IMG/VR virus record: IMGVR_UViG_3300033388_003186
Location: 1-51,291 of that record
Strand: one strand, 5' to 3'
Source: a virus
Lineage: Duplodnaviria > Caudoviricetes
Length of the DNA stretch: 51,291 nucleotides
The notes below the pieces were generated by a model, which had not been told where the DNA came from, did no database searches, and saw nothing but the letters and a program-made list of their open reading frames with translations. This document shows, in pieces, positions 17,333 through 41,000 of this stretch. A program made the position numbers and the translations under genes. Positions within the stretch are counted from its first letter, which is position 1; every line of letters starts with the position of its first letter.

Positions 17333-17727
17333 ATTAAATTCCCCCTAAGAAAAGACTCGTGAATACTGAAAACAGCGCCATTAAAATCAACCAGACATAT
17401 CCTATATATTTTGTTGGTCGTCTCATTACTCCCCCCTTATCAGCCTGGCGATATGCCAAACGAAAAGGCCAAGGCCGCACGCGACCACACCTATTTGGCA
17501 GGCGAACGCAGCGTACTTGGCTATTGCGATTATTGTTGGATTCATCCTTCCCCCCTTAGTAAATGGTTATCCAAAATCCGTGGGTATCTACCTCGCTCGT
17601 GAACCGCTGGCCGTGGTACTTCAGGCCGGTCACGAATTCTGCCATCAGCATCATCTGGTCATTTCTGAAAAATACTTTTCCCATAATTCCCCCCTCTTGG
17701 TTTTGGTTTTCCTTCATGCCTTTAATA

Positions 17728-17756
17728 AGTGTAACATGAAGGAAAACTAATGTCAA
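17728..17756 (-). promoter_or_regulatory. Class I sigma70 promoter overlapped by 13-bp inverted repeat
   Basis: TTGACA-17bp-TACACT with TG extension; gttttccttcatg/catgaaggaaaac at 17706-17747. Confidence 0.7.
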
Positions 17757-17764
17757 GAAGATTT

Positions 17765-18073
17765 TTAGATTAGCTGGAAGTTAATCTCCTGGACCGTGAT
17801 AGCAACGGCTTCCTGGTTGAATAGAGACTTGTATTCCTCGGCAATGGCTGAAATCTTGGAAGCATTCTCGTATGCCTTCTCGTGGATGATTTCGACAACA
17901 AATGACATTTCCTTGACACCTTTCCACATACCGTATGCTTCAAAGTAGGTGTACCCATCAAAATATTTGTCGATAACCTTCTCACGAAAGTCCATCAATT
18001 CAAAATAGGTTACCTCACTTGCTCCGCCTGGGCCGGAGATTGTCCGACCAAAATACATCGTGGTTTTAATCAT
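17765..18073 (-). CDS. Putative SAM lyase (T3 SAMase/DUF3574-like)
   Basis: YFGR...FDGYTYFEAYGMWKGVKEMS...YKSLFNQEAV; start MIKTT after AAGGGG. Confidence 0.65.
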   Translation of the reverse strand: MIKTTMYFGRTISGPGGASEVTYFELMDFREKVIDKYFDGYTYFEAYGMWKGVKEMSFVVEIIHEKAYENASKISAIAEEYKSLFNQEAVAITVQEINFQLI

Positions 18074-18168
18074 ATCTTTCCCCTTTGGTTCTGGTTTAGT
18101 ACAGGCAGCCGTGAACATTCTCGACTGACGATCTCTATACCGCTTGGCTCCAGGGCTTTGGATTCTCA

Positions 18169-18366
18169 CTATTCCCCCCAATCCAAGTATCCGCCGTTTT
18201 CCTGCTCTTCGAATTCATCCTCGTCCAACTCGGCGTCTTCGTTATATCCTTCCTTCTCGCCGGAAGCTGTAAAGTCTGCGCCGCATTGACGGCATCTCAT
18301 GTAAGTTGATTTTCCAAGAGTCCCGAGTTCTTCGCCCTGGCCCCCGCACATCGGACAGTCTTCCAT
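18169..18366 (-). CDS. Zinc-ribbon protein with acidic tail
   Basis: CPMC...CRQC; GGGGGA RBS. Confidence 0.6.
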   Translation of the reverse strand: MEDCPMCGGQGEELGTLGKSTYMRCRQCGADFTASGEKEGYNEDAELDEDEFEEQENGGYLDWGE

Positions 18367-18375
18367 AATTCCCCC

Positions 18376-18561
18376 CTAAGCGTAAGTGTTAATATTGATT
18401 CCGATCTTTGCATTACCATTTTGGATTAACGTAGGGCGCTCCGCTCCGGCTCTCGCTTGGACTTTCACCGGCTGTTTCGTCTGCAAAGCTGGCAGCTTTC
18501 GTTTACAGGTCTCCGGCGCAGCAACGCCACCCCACGTTAAGAGTTTCTTAGTCATTGTCAA
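18376..18561 (-). CDS. Hypothetical early protein
   Basis: 61 aa, coupled to neighbours. Confidence 0.45.
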   Translation of the reverse strand: MTMTKKLLTWGGVAAPETCKRKLPALQTKQPVKVQARAGAERPTLIQNGNAKIGININTYA

Positions 18562-18829
18562 CTCCAGTTAAAAAGTGGCTGTTGATAGAGTCGTGAGAGT
18601 CAATGAGATTAACGATCTTCGCTGCCTCGGCGCGGCAGACCTTGGAGAAGTCCAGGTTTGCCTCGGCATCGAATTCATTAAACGGCTGGCAGGCGTTCAG
18701 CACTTCTTTGATCTTGTCGATACTTTTGTCCACCATCTCCGGTAGTCCAACCCCCAATTTACCTTCATCCATTTTTTTTATCTCCCTGTTTAAGTTTTTT
18801 TTAATAATCGCTATCGAAGTTCTCGCCAT
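18548..18829 (-). CDS. Hypothetical early protein
   Basis: 93-aa ORF. Confidence 0.55.
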   Translation of the reverse strand: MARTSIAIIKKNLNREIKKMDEGKLGVGLPEMVDKSIDKIKEVLNACQPFNEFDAEANLDFSKVCRAEAAKIVNLIDSHDSINSHFLTGVDND

Positions 18830-18995
18830 TCATCTCGGCTTCACGCCGCCAATCGGTACCCTCGTGGATCTCTTCGCACTTATCACACAAGTACGGGTAT
18901 CCGGTAGGGCTTGTGCTTCCGCACTTTACGATGACCTCTTTTCCGCTGAAGCCACGCTCTACATAAACTTCCATTTCCTTATTGCATCCAGCCAT
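18801..18995 (-). CDS. Small Cys-containing early protein
   Basis: MAGCNK start after AGGGAG; CG...LCDKC. Confidence 0.55.
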   Translation of the reverse strand: MAGCNKEMEVYVERGFSGKEVIVKCGSTSPTGYPYLCDKCEEIHEGTDWRREAEMNGENFDSDY

Positions 18996-19024
18996 TTTTT
19001 TCTCCCTGTTTAAGTGTCTTTCTA

Positions 19025-19053
19025 AAGATAACATCTTTTTAATCGTTTGTCAA
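19025..19053 (-). promoter_or_regulatory. Class I sigma70 promoter
   Basis: TTGACA-17bp-TATCTT with TG extension. Confidence 0.65.
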
Positions 19054-19084
19054 CCCCTTTCGGGATTATTTTTTTAAAAGCGTC

Positions 19085-19210
19085 TGACCCTGAAGGGATT
19101 CGAACCCTTACGGGAATATTCCTGGTTCCCTTAGCCGTAGGTTGCCAGGCATTCCCTAACCAATAAGCGCACTCGACTCGGCCTTGTCTCAGCTATGGCG
19201 CTCCAGGGCC
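19085..19210 (-). ncRNA. tRNA-like RNA (acceptor stem and T-arm, no canonical anticodon arm), 126 nt
   Basis: GGCCCTG/CAGGGTC-A acceptor stem; AAGGG-TTCGAAT-CCCTT T-arm; internal AGCGC/GCGCT and GGGAAT..CCTGG/CCAGG..ATTCCC stems. Confidence 0.65.
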
Positions 19211-19218
19211 ACAAGTTT

Positions 19219-19425
19219 TTAGACAAACGATTTGACGGGCATACCAGCGGCGATCCGTTTCTTCCTGGGCTGGGTATTAACGGGGTGTCCGCGCAGCGCC
19301 TCTTTTTTGCAGAAGCAACCGTAGCACCGCCTCGCGTCCTTTTGCTCTACCATGCGAGCTTTGATTTTTTTTCCACATCGGCATTCCCTGTCAGATTTCT
19401 GATCGTGCGAATGAGATTTTTTCAT
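19219..19425 (-). CDS. Small basic zinc-binding protein
   Basis: MKKSH start after AAGGAG; CRCG...CYGC. Confidence 0.6.
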   Translation of the reverse strand: MKKSHSHDQKSDRECRCGKKIKARMVEQKDARRCYGCFCKKEALRGHPVNTQPRKKRIAAGMPVKSFV

Positions 19426-19447
19426 AATTTCTCCTTTGTTTTTTTTA

Positions 19448-19572
19448 TTCACTCAGGTATGGCCACGGATTTTCACATGGGACTGCTACCCATGTTCACT
19501 CCTGTACTATCTGAGAAAGGAGTCCAGTAATCAGTGTTTATGACGGGCTTAACCGACAGTGACCTGAGTGAA
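19448..19572 (-). ncRNA. Structured intergenic RNA candidate (multi-branch)
   Basis: 11-bp closing stem ttcactcaggt/acctgagtgaa enclosing acatggg/cccatgt and actcct/aggagt hairpins. Confidence 0.5.
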
Positions 19573-19579
19573 CAAATTG

Positions 19580-19855
19580 TTATTGGCTGCAATGGCCAAA
19601 TTTTTCAGTGTTAAATTCAAGGATAAAGATACCGGCCAGCTTTTCAATTACGATTGCCTGCTCGCCATCTTTAAGCTGGGCAAATTTAAGAAAGGACTCA
19701 AAACTAATTTCAAGAACCTCACATATTCCGGTTGTAAGGTCTCCGTGGCGATTCTCCTGGTTCATTTTGATGACTTCGAGCTTCGCAGTTTCTTTCGTCC
19801 ATGCTTTGAACCTACAAGGTGAACCGTCTGGTTTAGAGCTTATTGTTACTGGCAT
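19580..19855 (-). CDS. Hypothetical early protein
   Basis: 91 aa, AGGGAG RBS; first gene of the leftward early unit. Confidence 0.55.
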   Translation of the reverse strand: MPVTISSKPDGSPCRFKAWTKETAKLEVIKMNQENRHGDLTTGICEVLEISFESFLKFAQLKDGEQAIVIEKLAGIFILEFNTEKFGHCSQ

Positions 19856-19886
19856 TTTTTTATCTCCCTGTTTGAGTGCTAATTAC

Positions 19887-19915
19887 ATCATCTCATAATA
19901 CTATATTTTTGTCAA
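19887..19915 (-). promoter_or_regulatory. Leftward class I promoter (divergent switch)
   Basis: TTGACA-17bp-GATGAT with TG extension and upstream A-tract. Confidence 0.5.
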
Positions 19916-19938
19916 GTAAAAACTTTATTTTTTTTTTA

Positions 19939-29047: not shown

Positions 29048-32000
29048 TTAATCTCCTTTTTTATACTTCGCGTAAACATTTCGGACGATTTTGTTTCTAC
29101 GCTGATAGAGATTCTCAAGCCGTCTCTTCTTCTCAGCGCCGTCCATTCGTGGGTTTAGCCATACAAGCCGGATATCCTTATTGATCTCCGACAAATCTTT
29201 TCTGGCTTTACTGAACTGTTTTTTAAGGTTATAGAATTCTTTATTGTCCCTTATCAATTTCTGTGAAGCCTTGAAGTCACCGAGTTTGTCATAATAGTTC
29301 ACGGTCCTTATCAGCTTACTCATTTCGTTATAGTGGTCATAGAAGCGAGTCATATATTTCGTATTCCTGGCCTCGCCCTTTTTAATAAACCTTGCGAACC
29401 CTGGATATTCATTCCAGGAGAGGTCTGGTCTCTCGGGGAAGTCGAATGCGTTTCTCACCATCGCGTCAGACATTCCGAGGATGAACATTCCGAACGTTCC
29501 CGTATACCCGCGAAGTAAATGCTCCATACGCTTAGGCGGAAGGTTAGCTGCACCGCCTATAAGCCGCATCGTCTCCGAGGTCCATGGGTCATAGCGCTCG
29601 CCCCAGCGAAGTCCGCTGAGTCCCTGGCCCTCTATCGGCCTACCGGTAAAGCTGACCTTATTGGCCCATTGCTCTGCAAGTGGCTTGGTGGCCTGGATAC
29701 CGAGAATAGGATTAAACGCGAAGGTCTCTGTCGTGGCGTGTTTTAAGTACGTCCACAAGTGGTCAATGTCCTCGTTGCCCACCATCACGTTACCTACGGC
29801 CTCTACCGAAGTCGAAAATAGAACTCCAGTTTCAAACGGCTTTGGTATCCTGAAGTGCAAGTCTCCAATCCAGAAATGATAATATGCGAACCGGTCCCAA
29901 TCCTCAAGCTCTTTGTACCGGTCGTCATCTTTATACATGAGCCATAACCCAAGCGACGCCAGGGCTATCATAAAAGCTTTCATTGCGAAGTGCGTCGGAT
30001 TCTCCCTGGCTGCGCGGCCCATCTTATAAAGGCCCTGTGCGCGAGCGTTAAGGAATGGTATGGTCTGGATCATAAACTGGACGATACCGGCTGCACCGCT
30101 CATTTGAAAGTCCATCAGGTCCCTGGATGCAAAGTAAGCCTTCTCGGTCGTTTCACCCTTGGCCATCAAATTCTCAGCCAACTGAATCCTGGCGGCATTC
30201 TCAGATGCAGCGCCAACCCTCTCCCATACCTTTAGCATCTTGGCAGGCGTATCAAGGATTCTGCCTATGATAGTTTTACCTTCACTTCCTAACAAGTGAT
30301 TGATAAATTTATCAGCAACGTTCTGACCCTTCAACTGCGTTTTTATATAATGGGCGAGGGCCTTTGGATCTTCAGACCTAACATAATGACCGCCGAATGC
30401 ATGGCCGGAAGCCAGGTAACCGATATAAGCCTCGGTCTCACCCCACGCCTTCCAGAATCCTCGCATCGTATCAAAGAACGGTACGAACGATTTGGATATC
30501 AGGGACGTATGTAGCGTATCCCTTATCGCATTCGCAATTCGGAAGCCAGGGCCAAATGTCGCGCCGTAGGTCAACCATTTTTTAGAGGTCCTGAAGAAGG
30601 TCATAACCGCATTATCGAACTGGTGCGGGTTCATTCCCGAGATTGCAACGTACAATTCAGGGTCATTGACCTTGAAATACTGCATTTTACCAGCTTTCTG
30701 ATAGCCGAGAAGCTGCTCACCGGACTTTTTATGAACATAGATAGCACCGGTAGCCTTTCCGTCCTTGTCCTTCTGAGCCTTCATTACGACGGTCTGAGAC
30801 CATGGCACTTCTTCGATGACCGGTACGGGAACTTCTGTTTCTGTGGTATGCTTTATGATCTTAATATCTTTTTTCTTAAATAGATCATTGCTCGTTATTT
30901 CATCTCTGATATATTCCTGGGCCTCTTTGCGGTTATCAAACACATCGTAGGTTGTTCCGGTAACCGGATTGAATACAGAGAACTCGTTCTCCTTGACAAT
31001 CCTGGTCAGTCCGGTAAGCACCTTATTGTCATTCGCGTACTTAACAGACGAAGCCCTGGCGACATTGGTTATTGAGGTATTAAGAAGGTGGGTCCAATTC
31101 TTCATTATGTTTTCCATTGGGTCACCGATCTTAGACTCTCCACCGGTAAGCCTTTTTATACCGGCACTCAGAAAATCCTTGGACCTCGGCGGCGCTCTCC
31201 AGAATTCAGCGGCGGTCACCGGATTTTCGATAACCCTGTAAAACGGAATGTAGAGATCTGATTCCCATGCTTCCCTGGACTCAGCATTTATAACGCCTGC
31301 CTTTGTAGCTATGTCAAGGATATTTTTGTTGAACGCCTGAAACTGTTCATTTATCTGTTCCCAGCTTAAGCCTTCTTTGTTTTCTGGCAGGCCAACCCAT
31401 GCCATGATTTTTTCACGGTCTTCCTTTTTCAGCCAATGCTCGCGGCCCTGTACGTCAAGAGCCTCGGCACGCTGGGCAATCAGCCAATAGAAAAATTTAA
31501 CGCCGTCATTGGGACCGAGCTTCTTTATCCATGGAAGGAAACCAGCTTTACGCATAACCTTCTTGGTGGCCGGATCTTTCATGACCTGGATGGTCATCGT
31601 TTTATCCCAATACAGCTTCCCATGCTCCAGGAATGCAGCCAGGGAGCCTACCGCACCAGGTACGCCGCGAGCCTTCATATATGCATGAGCCTCTCCGCCA
31701 AGCCATTGCTTAATTGGATCAAGCTTATCAAACGTCAGGTATCGCCAGTTGCTCCGGTCCTTACCCTTTCCGGTAAAATATCCGAAGGTCTCGGCCAGCT
31801 TCTCGCTCAGTGGCGTATCCGATCTGCCAATCTTTGAATTGAGATACTGAACCGCTCCGCGCTCCTGGACCCTGAATGCATCAAGGCTTAGGTAGATCTG
31901 CTCTTTGATCTGGACGTAGTTGGTATCCTCAACCTTATGGAAGATGACATAATTCTTAGACCAGCTTTCTTCCATGGCGGTATGTAAATTATCGATTAAC

Positions 32001-35000
32001 TCAGGGTCTATGTGCTTCTTGAGTTCACCAACAAACTCTGGATCATGGTCCATAACCTTGCTCATTGCAAAATGAGTATCCTTAAGCCTATCGGGCAGCA
32101 ATGGCCGTACCCTATTCAACTCTTCAATCAATAGATCCTGTTCGAAGAGAACCTCTTTTGGAATTCGACCGAACATTGTGTCAGCCTCAAACCTTACGCC
32201 ATCGATACCGGCTGATTCGAATACCATGGTTGCATTTTTCTTAGAACCAAGAAGGCTTTCAAGCTCGCCGTAAACGTGCTTAACCAGCGGAGTTGTAGGA
32301 TTGTTCAGTAGTCGATTTTCAAATGTATTAAAGACCTCGTTTCCAACTGGAAGATTCTCGCTTTTTTTGGCCTCGGCTATGATCCTCTTTATCTTTTTCA
32401 TATCCATAGTTTTGAACCAATCTTCAAGTACCAGGTCGTCGCTCAACTCAACCTTGTGAACGATCTTTATTCCGCCGGTTGTGTCCAGCTTATAAGAACC
32501 TTCGTCAAGGGCAATCTCCCACTCACTTATTTCTGAGTATATCGCTTCAATCAATTCACCGTCAACTCTTCCAAGTCCAGGGACAGCCGTTACAATATTG
32601 TCGTCACCGCTGAGGCGCATATTTGCATTCGATGCAAAGCCTATCATATCGTAGAGGGCGTCAGTGATATATGTCGTAGCGTCGGCAGCGGTTATCTGAC
32701 CATTATCCTTTTGCGTGTCTGACAATATATTACCGACCTCTTCCTCAAGAAATTTAATTACCTTATATCGTGCATACTCTTCAAGAGAGGCATCGCCGTC
32801 CGGCCCCATCACGCTCTTAAGCGTCCCGTCGTCATTAATATTTATTTTGTAGAAACCCTGTTTTACCCACTCTCCGTCCTTTACAATGTCAACCGTCCGA
32901 GAGAGTCCGGTAGTCTTTGCGCCTACGGGAACGCCTGTGGGAATGAGGTCTATTGTAAAGTCTTTTAGCTTCGCGCCCTTCTCGGCAACCTTCGCGTATT
33001 TCTTTCCGAGGTTGAGCGCACCGGCAAAATATTCACCCCATGCAAATGCCTGGAAGCCCTCTCCGGTTGACATATAGCCAAGGTCATATTGGGCATACTC
33101 AGCGCCGGTCCCATGATACACGGTTATCGACGCGAACACTTTTTGCTTGCGTTCATTGTTTTTGTACCCATCCAAATACTGAACAGTGGCCCCATCCCAA
33201 TTACGCCTGGCACGCTCAAGGGCGTGAGGTTTATTGAGACCTCTGATCTCGTCAACGAACGACTGTCCAGGGGTGGCACCTATTCTCGGAAAGGTTATCT
33301 TTACCCTTGCGGTAAAGGAATAGTTCTGGTCATAAAACCCCTTCTGTATAAAAGGATCTTTGCTGAACCCGAGTAGATTATTAGGAGCCTTCGAATAAGC
33401 CTCGCTGGCTGCGTATGCCTCTTTTTGATTCATCGGTATGGAAGCGAATAGAGCTTCTTGCTTACCTGGTATGGGCCTCTGTTTGCCTTCTCTGAAGTCC
33501 TTAAGCTGTTTGTCTCTTATGGGTCCTATGTTGATACCAGCGTCAAGCCATTGCTGATATAGGGCCGCCTGATTAACATCTATCAGGCCCTCTACTGGTT
33601 CTTTTTTAATGAACTCTTTGATTCCCTTGACGACATTGGGATTGAGTCTCTCAACCTCACCGAGGCGTGGCCGTCCTTGCCCTTCAAGTAATTTTGAACG
33701 CTTTCTGAACTCTCCTGAGACAATTTTTGGCTCCGCGATAAGTCCCAAGTCTCTTGATATCTTTGTTGCCTTTGCAATTTTTTTGTCATATTCCTGCCCT
33801 TTCGGATTCGTCTTCCAATCATTTGATAACACTGAATGGTTATACCATACCTGGCCGAAGCCCTCATACGACGGGAACTCACGCTGTATGGCGTGTATAG
33901 AGTCAAGCGCTGCCTGGAGAAAATCGGAGTCGGTTTGTTTAACCGTTCCGAATACATTCTTTAATTCTTTGGCCTTTACGTTATTAACGAACCGGCCTTT
34001 ATTTGTAAAGAAACCTTTCTCTCCGTCAGCTTCACGAAGTTGTTTAAATGTAATGCCAGCTTTCTTATAGAGCGCCTCGTAGTTCTTTGCGCCCCGTATT
34101 ATATTGTCGTTGTATTTTATTGCCGGTTCAATCGTCTTCTCGTTGTTCCTGTATCTCAAGTGGTGCAAGGTTAACGAATTTATCGACGGCGTATAGGTAG
34201 ATCCATGGATACCGTTGTTATCGAGCATCGTCGATAATTCAACAAGCTGATCCTCGGTCAGCGGATCTTTAAATTTAAGAACGAGACTCGGGGCCTGGTC
34301 ACCGGCAATGCCTTCCGGCCTATTCTTGTCGTTCCATCCAGACATTTGCTCGGAGAACACGCCTTCGTACTGAGCGTTATCTTTAAGGAACTGTGCCAAT
34401 ATCCCCTTTGCTATGTCAACATTGGCAAAATCAAAATCAACATCGATAGAGAATTCCCGTCCGCCACCGGCCCATCTACCTTCAGCGGGACCTATCCCTC
34501 TAATGTCAATCAGGGGGTGCGTGAACAACCTTGTTACCTCTGAGCGCATGGCGTTGTCAAGGTCTTCGGTCTTCCCTTCATCGTACCATTTTTGGTACCT
34601 TACCAGCTTCCGATAGTGTTGCGGGAAGTTATTTTTTACAACCTCAAGTACCTCTGGAGAGACGATATTGCTGATTCCAAGTGAAGCTCTACGCATAGGC
34701 TCTACCCTGGTAGGCTCTAACAGGATCGTCATTTCACCAGATTTAATTCCAACCCATCCGGCATCCCTGATCTTCTTTTCAAAACTTAACAGGGTCGTTA
34801 TATCTTCAGGGTCAAATGTAGGGTCAATCAATCCATCAGGGTCAAGGTCTGCATTGTAAATCTTGTCAGTATCTATAACCGCTCTGTGCCTGGTCTTGCC
34901 GGATATGTCGTAATCCTTTGGCAGCGTCGCGGCGTCGAAGAACTGTATCAATAAAGGATCGTCGCCCTTTACCATTTCAAATACATTGAGATCCTTGTCC

Positions 35001-38000
35001 TGCGAATAGGTGTCAAGGATATGGCGAACGGTTGGATCTCGAAGTTTAAATTTTAGATAGGCGCTGATCTGGCGCTCGTCCAGGTCGGTAATGCCTGACC
35101 ATCTCTCTGCCATGACGGTCAGCGTTTCATCAAAGGTGTATCCTTCCTGGCCCACCTTGCCCCTGGCCTTCTCCCATATATCTCTGATATGAAACCATAG
35201 GACAGCCTGAGCCATATCAGGGTGCCAGGTCTCTCCGGTCTTCTTGGACATTGCGGCTTCAACGTCTCTCATGTGGCGCTGAACCCTGAGATGCTGGACC
35301 TGTGATAAAGCCTTGTCCTTAGCCTTTTCAGCGAGAGGACCGGAGCTTGCCGAGGGATAGAAATAACGGTTAACCCAAATATCAACAACCGTCTCAACTG
35401 CATTCCTTACCCCGTAGTCACGAAGGATAGAGGCGAACGTCTCAGCGAAAGCCTTGACCTTTACCTCTCCACCCTTGAACTTCATGGCGGTAAAGTCGAT
35501 CCTGAACATCTCGTCAATGGTCTTGGCGCTCAATACACGGCCAACCGTCTTCGCGTCAACGAGTCCGAACTTCGTTTTCTTATCGACCTGTCCAGCTTTC
35601 TCCAGCATTCTGAACTTAATAAACTCGACCATGTTGGCTAATGTGCCTTTGTTGCGACTCGTGTGAGATAGCATGGCCAGGCCCATAAATAGATTCAGGT
35701 CGGTGTCATTCTCGAATACGGTCCTCAGGTACTTTATATTATCATACCAATGCTTTGCATTAGGATCTTTTTTATCTGTCGCCAGAAGGTCCTTGACGGT
35801 CTCCTGGACGGTAGGAAAGGGGTACTCTTCCATGCTCTTCCCTATGGTCTGGATTCTTCCGGCCAGGGTCTTGTCAACTCCATTGTCAGTCAGAAATTTC
35901 CTCAGGCCCTTGGCTCCGCCGGTCAACTCCAGGAGCTTCTCAATACTCGACCGTTGTTCATTTATGGTATATGATTTACCGGCAACCTTGACCTTTATTG
36001 ACTTTCCTTCCAGGGCCTTTTTAAGGTCGATGGATTGCATAATGCTCGGAGATTCGGTCGGAAACTCATTGAATAATGATTTTATCTGATTTTCCCTAAA
36101 GGGTATCCAGGACCCAAACTCTTCCTGGGCATCAAATATCGACATTTTTTCCTCGGGGTCTATAATTTCGAGGAACTCTTCGTCGGACATTTCGTTAAGT
36201 ATACCCTCTCCTGCATCGCTCTCCAAATACTCCTGGAGATATCCACGATACGGTTGTGGTATCTCTCTCCTGTTCAGATATTCTATGCCATCGAATCTCT
36301 TTCCAAATTCATCTTTCATTTGAAATAGAGTGTCAACTATTTCCTCTTCCATCCTCGCCTGAGACACTTCTTCGCCTATGCTCGTATCGGCATTTATTTC
36401 TTTTAACTCTGATTCAAGTTGGTCTAAGCGGTCTTTATGCTCCGGCTTCCACAATCTATTATGATCCTTTAGTTGATTGTAAACGTCCGTCGCGCTGAAC
36501 GCACCCTTATCTATAAGCCTTATAGGGTTCTTTATGTTCAAGAGAACCGGATAGATTCTTTGCGTCTCTGGATAACCTTCGTAATCACCGAGGATTATAT
36601 TCGCTTGTTCTGGCTGTCCGAAGTGAGGGCCGAGGTCTGACCTTGAAAAACTAAATATTGCAAAATCCTTTTGCGCTCTCGTTCCGTGGAACACAACCAT
36701 TGGCTCCCCGTCTTTGCCCACGACCTTCGTATCCTTCGCCCACTCAAGAAGTTCCTTATTAATGGTTATCGAAGCAGACAACCTTTTAACCTCGGCTGCA
36801 TCGCGCTGTGCTACCTGAACTTCCGGCTTATACTGACGCCGGAGCATATCCTCGAAGCGATAGATTCCCTCGGAGATATTGCCGAGTTCTTCAAGCTCGT
36901 TCCTGGCAATGTTCATGTGTTCTGACATTGTGCCAAAAACGTGTTCCTCATTCATCGCCAGGGAGATAGCGGTCATCATCTCTTTGTCTGTCTTCGCATC
37001 CTTCATGCGTTTGCGCTGATCTCTGATACGTTCCTCGGCAGCATCCATGCTCGGGAAGTTGTCTCTCCAAGCAGGGTAACCCTTCTCTATCATTACGCGC
37101 CGGACTGTTTCGCCAACCGGAGAATCCCAGCCATTATCGTCAAGATATTCGGCAATGGAGTCAAGATTCATCTCCTGATAGACTGTATACTTCTGGTCCA
37201 TCTGATACTCGAAGTCCAGGATTTTATATAGATTTTCTTCGCTCTCTTCCTGAAGGTCGGCACGATCCTGCTCATACTCTTCAACAAGAATATCTACAAT
37301 CTCTTCTGCACCATCTGGCCAGATAGGCGGCTCATGCTCTTCCTGAACGGCATTCTCAATATCTTTCGATACATCGAATTCCCATGTATTACCCATTTTA
37401 ATCCAGCCGATCTTTCCGCCTGTAAACATTTCAGAAACAGTAAGCCCCGACTCTTCAGCAGCTTCATCGCTAAACTGAGAGTTGAACCAGGTCTCGGGGC
37501 TTTCGTGTCGGTACAGCCACTCGTCGTAAACTCCCTTCGTGTAACCAAGGACTCTCTCAGAAATAAGATGAAATTCTTTCAGAGTTTCATCGCGGTAGTG
37601 CTTTGCAAAAGAGTCCATCTTGTCTTCTGGTATTTTTTCATAAGCCCGAAGCTTGAGGTCAATAACGTGCATATATTTAATGGCCCGATAAGGTTCATCC
37701 GGCATAAAATCCCTGAAGTCATATTCGTCCTGCAAGTCTCTTGGCAATATGACCGGATCTTCTTTCTTTGCCATAACGATAGAAGCCTGTACGTCCGGCT
37801 TTTTTAGTTGCTTAGAACTGAACTCCAGGAGCCTGCGGTAGAACATCTCGTGCATATCTCTATTTTGGAGCCAGGACTTTGTAACGACGTTCTCGTCACC
37901 ATCGACCTCGTTATCTGTCCCTAACTGTGTCCCTGTTTCTGTCCCTTCATACGTCGCCAGAATATAGGTGTTAGTATGTGAAATTATATCTTTATTTGCT

Positions 38001-41000
38001 TCGAGGAAATTCAGAGTTGTCCGGTAGGTGTCCGCTGTTTCTGTCCATAGCTTTCCCTTCTCCATTCCGGCCAGGCCAACCATGACATTCGGGATAAAGT
38101 TGATATTAAGGCGTCGCATTTTCTCGACGGCTTCATCAATATGTTTGGTGCGGTGAGGCTTATTTATCTTTGCAAGAATGTCATCGTTATAGGATTCCAT
38201 TCCAATCTCAGCGTACTTGATACCGGACTTCTTCAGGAAGTCATCGGACATTTTATTGAATGCCGGTGCGGTTGTCTGAATGATAAACCCTTGAAAGTCG
38301 GGGTTCTCCGCCTTGATCTGTTTATTAACCTCAACGAGGCTTTCAAAATTATCTGCCTGGCCGAAGGTCTTGTCGTTCAGGTAGACCAGCTTAAACCCAA
38401 GGTTTGCAAAGGATTTAGCCTCTGCCATAAAGTCCTTATTGGGGATGACCTTTTTGGGTACCGTACAGAAATGGCACTTATGTTTACAGCCCTTTGACAT
38501 TTCAAGGCGAGGGATAACCTTGGTACCCTTGAACTGGCGGTAGTCCGCACCCTTCTTATAAGGCACCTTCAGCAACTTCGCGGCGGATTCCATATCCTCT
38601 GCGAACTTGATATTTTTGATCCCTTCAAAATACTTAGGATCGACGTAACCACCGACAATGATATCACCGTCAAAGCTACCAGCAAGCTCTTTGATGAAAT
38701 GCTTATTGGCGTCCATGGCCGAGAACATAATCGACTCATAACCCGAGGCTTTAAAGTACGCTTTCGCCTCTTCGACATTTCTGACGACATAGGTATCAGC
38801 ATTTTTAAAACTCTTGGCACCTTGAGCCATCCAGGTCGGCACTTCCCAAAAGTCCGTAGGACGCTCATAGCCGTCACGTTCTGAGTACAGAAGGTCGAAG
38901 TATGCATCACCCTGAGAAGTCGCTGCCTCGCGCCCCCTGAGAGACGAGACCTGTACCATGGCCATTGTACTCTTACCACCCTTAACCCTCACGTTCTTTG
39001 TGGGCAGTATCGCGCTTCCCGAGGCTGTTACCTTCTCCCCGTCGGCGTAGCTCTTCCAAGACCTTTTAAGGTAGCCATCAAGCTTTTCTTCAATTTGCTT
39101 TTGTTTTTTTGTATCCAGGCTAAGTCGTGCTGATTCAGCATATTGCTGACTGATCGTGTCAAGTAACTTAGCTGTGCGCCCGTCAGCAGCGAGGTCTTTA
39201 TTCCAAGCAGCCGCGAAGCGTCCCGCGATGATGTTAGGCTCATAGATCTCCCCTTCATATTTAAAGTTTGTATAGTTTTCGTCTTCGTTTACAACCTTAA
39301 AGCCAAGCGACTCTATTATAGCGTTATTGCCCATTGCGTTCCAGGACTCTATAACCCTGCCACCTTCTGCAACGGCTGAGATAAGAGCTAATGCCATATC
39401 GTCACCGGCCATAACCATCTTCTGCGTCAGGACGATTTTGTTACCGTCAAGCATATACATATTGCTAATATCTTTAATGAGATCCTCAGATATCAGATAC
39501 CCACGCTCTTTGGTTTTACTTACCTGGTCGGCAGCCATAGCTATATCATTGCCGTCGTCCCTGTCTACAAAACGATCATGGGTAGTGGTGTATCCATCTG
39601 CCTCTGGATCGTAATCCGGCATAAACCCTAACTCTTGCTCTATCTCACCCCACGCGAGCGAGTGCATTGCGGCCTCGTATATTTTGCCTTCATACATGAC
39701 CGCCGGAGACTTGATCGCTTCCGGCCCCTTCATATTAATGGACGCCTGCATATCAATGCTAATCGCGTCAATGGAAGTCGGTGAGATCCTGGCAGCCGTT
39801 AAATGCTTCTCGGCTATCTCGGAGTATGCGCCTATAACGGCGTCCTCAATTTTGTCGATATCCTTTCTCAGGTAAGAATAGGCTTCCCCCTGCATCACTA
39901 TACCCTTAATCATGGATAGCAAATTTCTGAGGATATCAAGAAGTCTTATCGCCAGGGATGGATTGTTGACGTTTAAATCTGCAACAAGTTTTGTGATAAA
40001 AACAGGGTCAACCATTTTAGATGAAATATAGTCGGCCACGAATTCTTGTTTCATTTTTTCGTAGCCTTCTTTATTTTCATCTTTCTCTTTTTTCGACCAA
40101 CCCTTGTCTGGTGCCTGCGTAAAGGGCTTCAGTCCTACCCTTTCCCTCGCTGCATTTATGTCGCGCTGGTACCGTTTCCACTCTGTCTCATTAACGCTCT
40201 TCCAGAATATGTCCTCAACTGCCTTGGCAAGCGCGGGGTGCTTTTGCTGAATCTCATGCCAGGACTCGTGACCGTATATGGCAAGCAGAGCGCCTTGCTG
40301 GCTGTCTGCATTTAGCATGACGCCGCCATTGGTCATATAATACCCGTTCGAAGTTCTCAGTAATTTTTCGGTGCTTGTGTAATATGCAACCGGACCAAGG
40401 CCCAGCTTTTCACGAAGATCGGAGACGAGCCTTTGTTCCAATGTTAAGTCGGTAACCTGTTTGATCTTGCTCGGGTCTACGTTGCTTATCGTGCCTGGCG
40501 CTCCTGGCGCTGAAATGTTGGTGACGAAGCTGTCGAATAGTTTCTTTGCTTCAACGGCCCGTTTTGCCCCCTGAGGCTTCGCTCCTGCCTTTTTCTCAGG
40601 CTTTTTGGCCTTCTCTGGTGCAACGGGCTGCTTTTCAGCCTTGCGTTCAACCTCGCGGCTCTCAGCGAGATCTAACTCTTGCTTGTAGGATTTCTCACCA
40701 TAGGCCACTTCGTATGCAATATCAATGCCACGATTGATTAATTTTCCAACCCTTCCAGATGGAATTGATTTATAGACCTTTCCCTTGATCCTCTCGTCCT
40801 GAACTTCGTCAGGTCTGACGCTCGGTACATTTCTCCATTGCGTCAGCGTAGGTCTCTCAAGCAGCTTTAGGTCCTGGTCGGCAAGAGCGGACTGCATCAT
40901 CTGATATCGTTCTATGTGCGGCATAGGTTCGATCTTGTTGTCGTAAAGATCCTGGACCTTGGACTTCTGTTTGTCGTCCAGCCTATTCCATAATCGATCT

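What the first reader, a model, noticed from the sequence alone, without database searches (positions are those of the whole stretch)
19085..19210. 126-nt tRNA mimic with acceptor stem and T-arm but no anticodon arm
Seen on the minus strand: 7-bp acceptor stem, discriminator A, perfect T-arm (GTTCGAATC), an enlarged D-position arm closed by AGCGC/GCGCT, and a long interrupted hairpin instead of anticodon and variable arms. No CCA is encoded. It is too long for a tRNA and too short for tmRNA. Inference: a decoy for anticodon nucleases or tRNA-sensing defences, a Y-RNA-like module, or an RNase P/Z processing signal in the early transcript.
Basis: partly seen in the sequence, partly recalled or inferred. 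Interest (0 to 1): 0.75.

Follow-up and report, generated by a model that had tools for sequence, protein, structure and literature searches.

The report
Loop-locked tRNA mimic in sediment phage
An uncultured sediment phage carries a 126-base sequence with the top half of a tRNA but no anticodon, whose two extra arms end in loops predicted to pair with each other; this matches the layout of phage T4's long-unexplained RNA C and likely makes a stable tRNA look-alike, though no RNA data or diverged relatives confirm it.

Summary
On the minus strand, 19210-19085 has a perfect 7-bp acceptor stem, discriminator A, a canonical T-arm, no encoded CCA and no anticodon arm. Only 15 of 1000 shuffled windows give such a top half. 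It is not a tRNA, tmRNA, Y RNA or attachment site by any test run here.

- The tips of the two inner arms are complementary over 5 bp; 26 of 3000 interior shuffles give the whole design.
- T4 RNA C has the same layout, and its 6-bp loop pair covaries in 3 of 14 homologs.
- One related phage contig lacks a 160-nt stretch that holds the element, so it looks like an optional cassette.

Best reading: an RNA C-like, non-decoding tRNA mimic, likely cut from an early transcript by host tRNA-processing enzymes and acting as a decoy. Against: no diverged homolog, no RNA data, and an RNA C model does not detect it. The scan noted similar loop-paired tRNA mimics on other DNA (unchecked notes).

The parts
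19085..19210 (-). 126-nt tRNA-like RNA (candidate gene), four-way junction
   Evidence: chance 15 of 1000
19204..19210 (-). Acceptor stem, 5' strand (positions 1-7); U at -1 (19211)
   Evidence: pair probabilities 0.99-1.0; same 7 letters as three distinct tRNA-Glu genes
19165..19203 (-). Arm 1, starting at position 8 with no unpaired connector; 4-nt bulge on the 5' side, possible tandem G-A pairs, 8-nt terminal loop
   Evidence: pair probabilities 0.76-0.96; the tandem G-A pairs are read by eye
19179..19183 (-). Arm 1 loop bases GGCCG, predicted partner of the arm 2 loop
   Evidence: null tests
19157..19164 (-). 8-nt unpaired linker with a D-loop-like GG (19161-19160) that could contact the T-loop
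   Evidence: unpaired in the fold; T-loop contact is inferred; descent from a tRNA D-loop not supported
19112..19156 (-). Arm 2, long interrupted hairpin (7 + 5 + 3 bp) with a 7-nt terminal loop that lacks the U33 of an anticodon loop
   Evidence: pair probabilities 0.72-1.0
19133..19137 (-). Arm 2 loop bases CGGCU, predicted partner of the arm 1 loop (4 G-C plus 1 G-U)
19093..19109 (-). Canonical T-arm, preceded by a 2-nt linker
19085..19092 (-). Acceptor stem 3' strand and discriminator A; no encoded CCA
19056..19215 (.). 160-nt stretch (element plus 5 nt upstream and 29 nt downstream) replaced by 6 letters in one contig of a related phage
   Evidence: tables 5 and 5c (run X2, one contig, depth 13.1); loose end running into the next promoter, table 7
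19219..19425 (-). 68-aa ORF whose stop codon lies 8 nt before the element; likely co-transcribed
   Evidence: 4 homologs at 63-88% identity; covered by related contigs
19887..19915 (-). Sigma-70-type promoter match, the likely source of the transcript
   Evidence: 10 of 12 match with extended -10; function not shown
19025..19053 (-). Next sigma-70-type promoter match, 31 nt after the element; starts the next gene module
   Evidence: 10 of 12 match; repeated ribosome-binding-site module (family D1)

Best explanation
The element is likely a small non-coding RNA gene of the same design as phage T4 RNA C: it has a tRNA top half and no anticodon arm, its two inner arms are predicted to lock tip to tip, and it would be cut from the end of an early transcript by host tRNA-processing enzymes to act as a stable, non-decoding tRNA decoy. 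Shown by sequence and calls: the acceptor stem, T-arm, two arms, complementary loop bases, position 8 nt after a conserved small ORF, and absence from one related phage contig. Inferred steps: (1) transcription from the promoter match at 19915; (2) RNase P cleavage before G1; (3) 3' trimming after the discriminator and CCA addition; (4) loop-loop pairing that closes the bottom half; (5) binding of a host protein that reads the tRNA acceptor end or elbow, most likely a tRNA-directed defence factor. Step 5 is the weakest.
For: Top half beyond chance: 15 of 1000 shuffles. Whole design (top half kept, two or more inner hairpins, loops complementary over at least 5 bp) in 26 of 3000 interior shuffles, and 0 of 3000 with at least 4 G-C pairs. 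T4 RNA C folds as acceptor, arm 1 from position 8, unpaired linker of about 8 nt, arm 2, 1 nt, T-arm, with no encoded CCA; its helices covary across 15 homologs. Its loop-loop pair is kept in 14 of 14 aligned homologs, with changes on both sides at 2 of 6 pairs in 3 sequences. Both loop pairs end in the same CG/CG step. RNA C is an expressed RNA of unknown function (PMC9697503 and PMC3014915, passages) at the 3' end of its transcript (PMC2330249, passage). Acceptor stem plus T-arm hairpins are cut by bacterial RNase P, and CCA-less T4 precursors are processed (PMC11143913, section 4 and passages). One related contig lacks a 160-nt stretch whose edges lie 5 and 29 nt from the element. Neighbouring early genes include a DUF3574 protein with a sub-threshold SAM-lyase match and a protein with a just-sub-threshold Lar restriction-alleviation match.
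Against: No diverged homolog was found, so the fold of this element has no covariation support. Seven viral pattern scans gave none (four aimed at the element, three at the upstream module), nor did a RecT-anchored search, two genome scans or BLAST of phages and plasmids. The one metagenome scan returned only an identical copy in a 99.7% identical contig. A covariance model of 15 RNA C homologs does not list the element among 18 matches at E up to 10, so descent from RNA C is not shown. Arm lengths are reversed relative to RNA C, and RNA C's acceptor has two U-U mismatches while this one is perfect. The loop pair is 5 bp with one G-U, and I looked for it after seeing RNA C; any 5-bp match arises in 7% of random loop pairs. 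Interior stability is weak. A relative does without the element. No target protein is identified, and the two anti-defence-like matches fall below Pfam cut-offs.
Confidence: 0.45

Rival explanations
1. Cis-acting processing signal, like the t-elements of plant mitochondria. The top half only marks where host RNase P and RNase Z cut the early transcript, fixing the 3' end of the upstream mRNA and uncoupling it from the next module. The released RNA has no job of its own.
For: G1 lies 8 nt after a stop codon. No terminator-like site is found on this strand between the ORF and the next promoter. The top half suffices for RNase P (PMC11143913, section 4). t-elements act this way (PMC1920247, abstract).
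Against: A cut signal needs only about 45 nt and would not explain 94 nt of inner arms with complementary tips. A related contig has the same ORF and promoter without the element.
Confidence: 0.25
2. Decayed or scrambled tRNA gene, probably from a tRNA-Glu-type acceptor, recently picked up and without function. The inner fold and loop match are chance.
For: Acceptor and discriminator are identical to those of 3 distinct tRNA-Glu genes; one of these matches 23 of the last 25 nt. Removing arm 1 leaves an 88-nt sequence that ARAGORN accepts. The element is absent from a relative, has no diverged homolog, and its interior z is only -1.83.
Against: The top half has no mismatch, while the interior resembles no tRNA: 1 of 55 tRNAs at p up to 0.05, and the four tRNA-Glu at p 0.35-1.0. 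The ARAGORN call after excision has a 3-bp anticodon stem, no U33 and an AAC anticodon, and lies within the control range. The full design arises in under 1% of interior shuffles.
Confidence: 0.17
3. Aminoacylated adaptor or ribosome-directed RNA. The RNA receives CCA and an amino acid and enters EF-Tu, SmpB or the ribosome, like a TLD-only tmRNA.
For: Perfect 7/5 top half. A stemless GG linker and a long helix before the T-arm recall the tRNA-like domain of tmRNA (recalled layout). A TLD-only tmRNA occurs in phage DS6A and may titrate SmpB (PMC4131195, passage).
Against: Pair 3:70 is C-G, not the G-U that marks alanine acceptors (recalled rule; sequence). The tmRNA model gives no match and no SmpB is encoded. 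The strong glutamate determinants lie in the anticodon loop and D-helix (PMC9976931, passage), which are absent. Arm 1 fills the space after position 7.
Confidence: 0.08
4. DNA-level feature: an attP core or integration scar at a host tRNA gene.
For: The 3' end is tRNA-like and sits at an indel boundary.
Against: The 5' acceptor strand is present and pairs fully. The 3' 25 nt match no GTDB genome exactly. No tyrosine integrase was found in the record, which is 87% complete; serine recombinases were not searched by family.
Confidence: 0.03

Closest known systems
Phage T4 RNA C (species 1 RNA, rnaC; AF158101 70908-71046) and its Tevenvirinae/Marfavirus homologs
   Same: Ends form a 7-position acceptor; arm 1 starts at position 8; 3-4 nt bulge on the 5' side of arm 1; unpaired linker of about 8 nt; arm 2 followed by 1-2 nt and a T-arm; complementary loops of arms 1 and 2 ending in a CG/CG step; no anticodon arm; no encoded CCA; similar size (136-140 vs 126 nt).
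   Different: No sequence likeness: the RNA C model misses it. Acceptor fully paired with discriminator A, against two U-U mismatches and U in most RNA C. Arm 1 short and arm 2 long, the reverse of RNA C. 5-bp against 6-bp loop pair. Lies alone among early genes of a phage with no tRNA genes, whereas RNA C sits in a tRNA cluster and is classed as late (PMC9697503, passage).
Bacterial tRNA-Glu(UUC) with a G1-C72, G2-U71 acceptor
   Same: Identical acceptor stem and discriminator in 3 distinct genes; 23 of the last 25 nt match L146, and the two differences are one swapped T-stem pair.
   Different: No UUC anticodon loop, no D-stem, 94-nt interior unrelated to tRNA-Glu. The acceptor is not unique to Glu: it also occurs in an intron-bearing tRNA-like sequence (L150) and at 14 of 15 positions in T4's CAU tRNA.
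tmRNA tRNA-like domain; TLD-only tmRNA of mycobacteriophage DS6A
   Same: Top half plus a stemless GG-containing linker and a long helix instead of an anticodon arm.
   Different: No G3-U70 pair, extra arm 1, no RF00023 match, no tag frame called.
Bacterial Y RNAs (YrlA)
   Same: tRNA-like module with a T-arm; some occur in phages (PMC4201824, passages).
   Different: [quoted passage not shown] Here the ends form the acceptor, no TROVE gene is present and Rfam gives no match.
t-elements of plant mitochondria; mascRNA/menRNA
   Same: tRNA-like fold next to an mRNA end, proposed RNase P/Z signal (PMC1920247, abstract). The mascRNA model weakly scores the 3' 43 nt (17.9 bits, cut-off 42.5).
   Different: Different hosts; these were not tested for two long inner arms with complementary tips; no cleavage shown here.

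Membership tests
Canonical tRNA | 7-bp acceptor, discriminator, 5-bp T-stem with consensus loop | tested here: met
Canonical tRNA | D-arm with stem, and anticodon arm (5-bp stem, 7-nt loop with U33) | tested here: not met
   no call; 13.8 bits against 29
Intron-containing tRNA | Removing one segment leaves a proper tRNA more often than chance | tested here: not met
   41 of 1820 products called; 7 of 20 controls reach 41 or more; product lacking arm 1 has no U33
T4 RNA C family | Detectable sequence-structure homology | tested here: not met
   model R1 does not list the element among 18 matches at E up to 10; positive control L131 scores 143.5 bits
T4 RNA C family | Layout acceptor / arm 1 / linker / arm 2 / T-arm without anticodon arm (feature defined here) | tested here: met
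   arm lengths reversed
T4 RNA C family | Complementary loops of arm 1 and arm 2 (feature defined here) | tested here: inconclusive
   5-bp match present, rare under shuffling, but no homologs to show covariation
T4 RNA C family | Location in a tRNA gene cluster | tested here: not met
   no tRNA gene in the window
T4 RNA C family | Accumulates as a stable RNA in infection | not testable with these tools
   needs RNA data
tmRNA / TLD-only tmRNA | G3-U70 alanine acceptor and match to RF00023 | tested here: not met
   pair 3:70 is C-G; no match; the G3-U70 rule is recalled
Y RNA (YrlA) | Internal acceptor-like stem-loop between T and D stem-loops; gene beside Ro60 | tested here: not met
   record is 87% complete
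tRNA-Glu identity | U34, U35, C36, A37, U11-A24, U13-G22:A46 (strong); G1-C72, U2-A71 (weak) | tested here: not met
   only G1-C72 present (determinants from PMC9976931 passage)
attP at a tRNA gene | Exact host tRNA 3' end and a nearby integrase | tested here: not met
   host genome may be missing from the collection
t-element (RNase P/Z signal) | Transcript ends map to the edges of the fold | not testable with these tools
   needs end mapping or in vitro cleavage

The most novel reading that the evidence does not exclude
T4 RNA C is one member of a widespread, uncatalogued class of phage RNAs that keep a tRNA top half and lock the bottom half with a kissing loop. This element is an independent, portable version placed among early anti-defence genes, where it neutralises a host factor that reads tRNA acceptor ends. 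That would give a function to an RNA unexplained since the 1970s and add a new kind of RNA counter-defence.
Probability: 0.2. Interest if true: 0.8.

Novelty: new variant of a known kind. Interest (0 to 1): 0.5.

Why it matters
T4 RNA C is conserved in over 700 phage records, yet the papers read here call its function unknown. The comparison made here gives a testable structure for it, a covarying loop-loop pair, and shows the same layout in an unrelated phage of over 51 kb with no tRNA genes, as an optional cassette among early genes. If the design recurs by convergence it points to a common host target, and the question can be tested in T4 and E. coli. Standard tRNA and Rfam annotation misses such RNAs. 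The score is held down because this copy is a singleton without covariation or expression data, and the scan has noted similar RNAs elsewhere.

Tried and rejected
Homolog searches that found no diverged copy:
- Viral pattern scans; 0; 9 loci, tRNAs or other tRNA-like RNAs; 13 loci, none similar.
- RecT-anchored locus search: none confirmed.
- Genome scans: 0.
- Metagenome scan: 6 loci, 1 an identical copy.
- BLAST of phages and plasmids: short matches only, for the element itself mostly 19-21 nt at the T-arm.
- Earlier findings by sequence or place: nothing.

Sequencing runs: no RNA holder listed; this says nothing on expression. X1 and L147 are near-identical and may be the source of the window, so they are not independent support. 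Lack of cover over 19040-19210 in X2 and X3 is not used as evidence; only the one joining contig is.

Ideas dropped:
- Relaxed ARAGORN thresholds gave 100 or more spurious calls and were uninformative.
- The linker as a relic of a tRNA-Glu D-arm: not supported.
- The acceptor as proof of glutamate identity: rejected, since the scan selected for this acceptor and other isotypes share it.
- Bulge-helix-bulge intron: no such motif at the arm bases by eye, and the promoters are bacterial.
- An ORF over the element: none of 50 aa or more covers it, apart from a 16-nt overlap on the other strand.
- Self-cleaving ribozyme or riboswitch for the upstream 107-nt module: no Rfam match near a gathering score.
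- AcrIIIA1-type protein-RNA complex (PMC11662646, passages): no bearing found.

Full report
SETTING. The window is a whole virus record of 51,291 bases, estimated 87% complete. It encodes terminase small subunit, DnaB, SSB, RecT, endolysin and a 4596-aa protein with an LPD38 domain. No tRNA gene is called, and family searches find no tyrosine integrase, Ro60 or SmpB. The nearest DnaB proteins carrying a taxon name are mostly from Deltaproteobacteria and Desulfobacterales at 41-43% identity, with one Pseudomonadota entry at 44%; this is only a weak pointer to the host. Runs holding related DNA are sediment metagenomes. The element lies among small genes arranged as modules, with sigma-70-type promoter matches at 19915, 19053 and 17756 and a repeated ribosome-binding stretch. 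Downstream modules encode a DUF3574 protein (weak, sub-threshold SAM-lyase match) and a protein with a just-sub-threshold match to the Lar restriction-alleviation family. That these are early anti-defence genes is inference.

THE OBSERVATION. The acceptor is 7 of 7 paired with one G-U at 2:71, the discriminator is A, the T-arm is canonical, and no CCA follows. The fold is unchanged with up to 700 nt of upstream context. Of 1000 dinucleotide shuffles of the window, 128 hold such a T-arm and 15 hold a T-arm with a 7-bp acceptor 30-150 nt upstream. The Rfam tRNA model scores only the last 44 nt at 13.8 bits, and tmRNA gives nothing. An exhaustive single-excision test gave 41 ARAGORN calls in 1820 products; 7 of 20 interior-shuffled controls gave as many or more. 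The product lacking arm 1 has a 3-bp anticodon stem, no U33 and an AAC anticodon. It is therefore neither a normal nor an intron-bearing tRNA.

WHERE THE TOP HALF COMES FROM. The metagenome scan for this acceptor and T-loop returned 6 loci. One is an identical copy in a contig 99.7% identical to the window. Four are tRNA-Glu(UUC) genes, 3 of them distinct, with the same acceptor and discriminator. One is an intron-bearing tRNA-like sequence that ARAGORN does not call. L146 matches 23 of the last 25 nt, and the two differences are one swapped T-stem pair. So the top half is one that real tRNAs use. The scan selected for it, and T4's CAU tRNA matches 14 of 15 acceptor positions, so Glu origin is likely but not proven. 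The interior resembles no tRNA: 1 of 55 at p up to 0.05, and the four tRNA-Glu at p 0.35-1.0. The strong glutamate determinants (PMC9976931, passage) are missing, so charging with Glu is unlikely. The last 25 nt occur in none of the GTDB genomes exactly, which with the missing integrase argues against attP.

AN OPTIONAL CASSETTE. In run X2 one 654-nt contig (depth 13.1) joins 19216 to 19055 with 6 letters between. Its loose end runs into the same next promoter. The missing 160 nt are the element plus 5 nt upstream and 29 nt downstream. This rests on one contig laid at 80% likeness. It shows that a relative with the same 68-aa ORF lacks the element and that gain or loss happened close to the element's edges. 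It also shows the element is dispensable in that lineage.

THE DESIGN. RNA C folds as acceptor, arm 1 starting at position 8, a linker of about 8 nt, arm 2, one nucleotide and a T-arm, with no encoded CCA. Across 15 homologs 19 of 43 pairs change on both sides; these sequences are related and the structure was derived from them, so the shuffle figure is not a probability. All 15 keep two complementary 6-nt loop motifs although arm 1 diverges. Of 4 further homologs, 3 change both loops together. An alignment of 11 of the first 15 plus these 3 has 84 of 84 cells paired and two pairs changed on both sides, probably two or three independent events. The element has the same order of parts, and its arm tips are complementary over 5 bp (19183-19179 with 19137-19133; 4 G-C, 1 G-U), ending in the same CG/CG step. 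With the top half fixed and the interior shuffled, 26 of 3000 sequences give the whole design and 0 of 3000 do so with 4 G-C pairs. Simpler nulls give 0.4% to 7%. I looked for the match after seeing RNA C, so these figures are somewhat generous.

LIMITS OF THE LIKENESS. A covariance model of 15 RNA C homologs does not detect the element, while it scores T4's own copy at 143.5 bits. Arm lengths are reversed, the acceptor is perfect instead of carrying two U-U mismatches, and there is no tRNA cluster. It may work like RNA C; it is not shown to belong to that family. Interior stability alone is weak (z -1.83). No diverged homolog turned up in any scan (see Tried and rejected), so nothing here shows selection on this copy directly.

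MECHANISM. Shown: the parts, their pairing in prediction, the loop complementarity, the position 8 nt after a stop codon with U at -1, and no terminator-like or promoter-like site on this strand between the ORF and the element. From papers: RNase P cuts acceptor-plus-T-arm hairpins, and CCA-less T4 precursors are processed, though CCA improves cleavage (PMC11143913). Inferred: the RNA is co-transcribed from 19915, released at G1, trimmed, given CCA, and locked by the loop pair into a compact body that cannot read codons. Least secure: that it then occupies a host protein that recognises the acceptor end or elbow, most likely a tRNA-directed defence factor, given the neighbouring genes. I put this reading at 0.45, a pure cis-acting cut signal at 0.25, a decayed tRNA at 0.17, a charged or ribosome-directed RNA at 0.08 and a DNA attachment feature at 0.03.

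LITERATURE. Seen as passages: PMC4201824, PMC5389517, PMC9697503, PMC12685909, PMC4131195, PMC9976931, PMC3014915, PMC2330249, PMC11662646. PMC11143913: passages and section 4. PMC1920247: abstract and outline. Three of these say RNA C's function is unknown. Searches listed no title that describes a kissing loop in RNA C or this class of RNA; I read listings only, 25 of 75 and 15 of 163 for the two widest. The original T4 RNA work of the 1970s-80s is largely outside the library, so a published structure may exist. No supplements were read; that of PMC5389517 holds irregular tRNA-like sequences that could bear on novelty.

EARLIER NOTES OF THE SCAN. After I had noted the loop match, a word search showed three notes on other genomes that describe tRNA-like phage RNAs with paired loops and cite RNA C. 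They are unchecked and are not counted as support. One of the 9 loci (L125) is another uncalled tRNA-like RNA, about 108 nt, whose two inner tips are complementary over 6 nt when the closing pairs are included.

VERDICT. A real tRNA-like fold, likely a small RNA gene of RNA C-like design: a new variant of a known but unexplained kind. Interest 0.5.

Noticed in passing
window 19457-19563, minus strand: A second candidate non-coding RNA or module of 107 nt inside a 15-bp inverted repeat. It is the best-covered part in runs X2 and X3 (summed depth up to 177), with loose ends at 19457/19458 and 19563, so it recurs in other contexts. Changes at 19521 and 19500 would keep one pair (not phased by contig). 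No Rfam match, folding z -0.85, no match in viral or genome scans.
   Followed up: partly
L131:410-546 minus (T4 rnaC) and L154-L171: T4 RNA C has a 6-bp loop-loop complement that covaries in Marfavirus and phage MHG19 homologs; no paper describing it was seen in the searches made.
   Followed up: yes
L125:1487-1594, minus strand: About 108-nt tRNA-like RNA not called by ARAGORN, with a D-loop-like segment and two inner hairpins whose tips are complementary over 6 nt including the closing pairs.
   Followed up: partly
L126:1490-1608 minus, L129:1461-1579 plus, L130:1451-1574 plus: Oversized (119-124 nt) tRNA-like sequences with a D-arm and very long inner arms; L126 and L130 are not called by default ARAGORN; no clear loop-loop match.
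   Followed up: partly
window 17500-19920, minus strand: Modules share promoter and ribosome-binding repeats, and related contigs show them skipped or reordered (joints), suggesting module exchange at the repeats.
   Followed up: no
window 17765-18070 and 18169-18366, minus strand: DUF3574 protein with a sub-threshold SAM-lyase match, and a small protein with a just-sub-threshold Lar restriction-alleviation match; possible anti-restriction genes.
   Followed up: no
window 29048-42838, minus strand: 4596-aa polyvalent protein with radical SAM, ART-PolyVal and LPD38 domains.
   Followed up: no
window 17695-17758: 24-bp inverted repeat overlapping the promoter match at 17756, a possible operator or hairpin.
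   Followed up: no
L145:728-783 and L149 (upstream of tRNA-Glu): The first 18-19 nt of tRNA-Glu are duplicated about 55-60 nt upstream of the intact gene.
   Followed up: no
L152:252-327 and L153:245-320: tRNAs with a CGC anticodon whose acceptor 3' end resembles the element's; ARAGORN calls them Ala.
   Followed up: no
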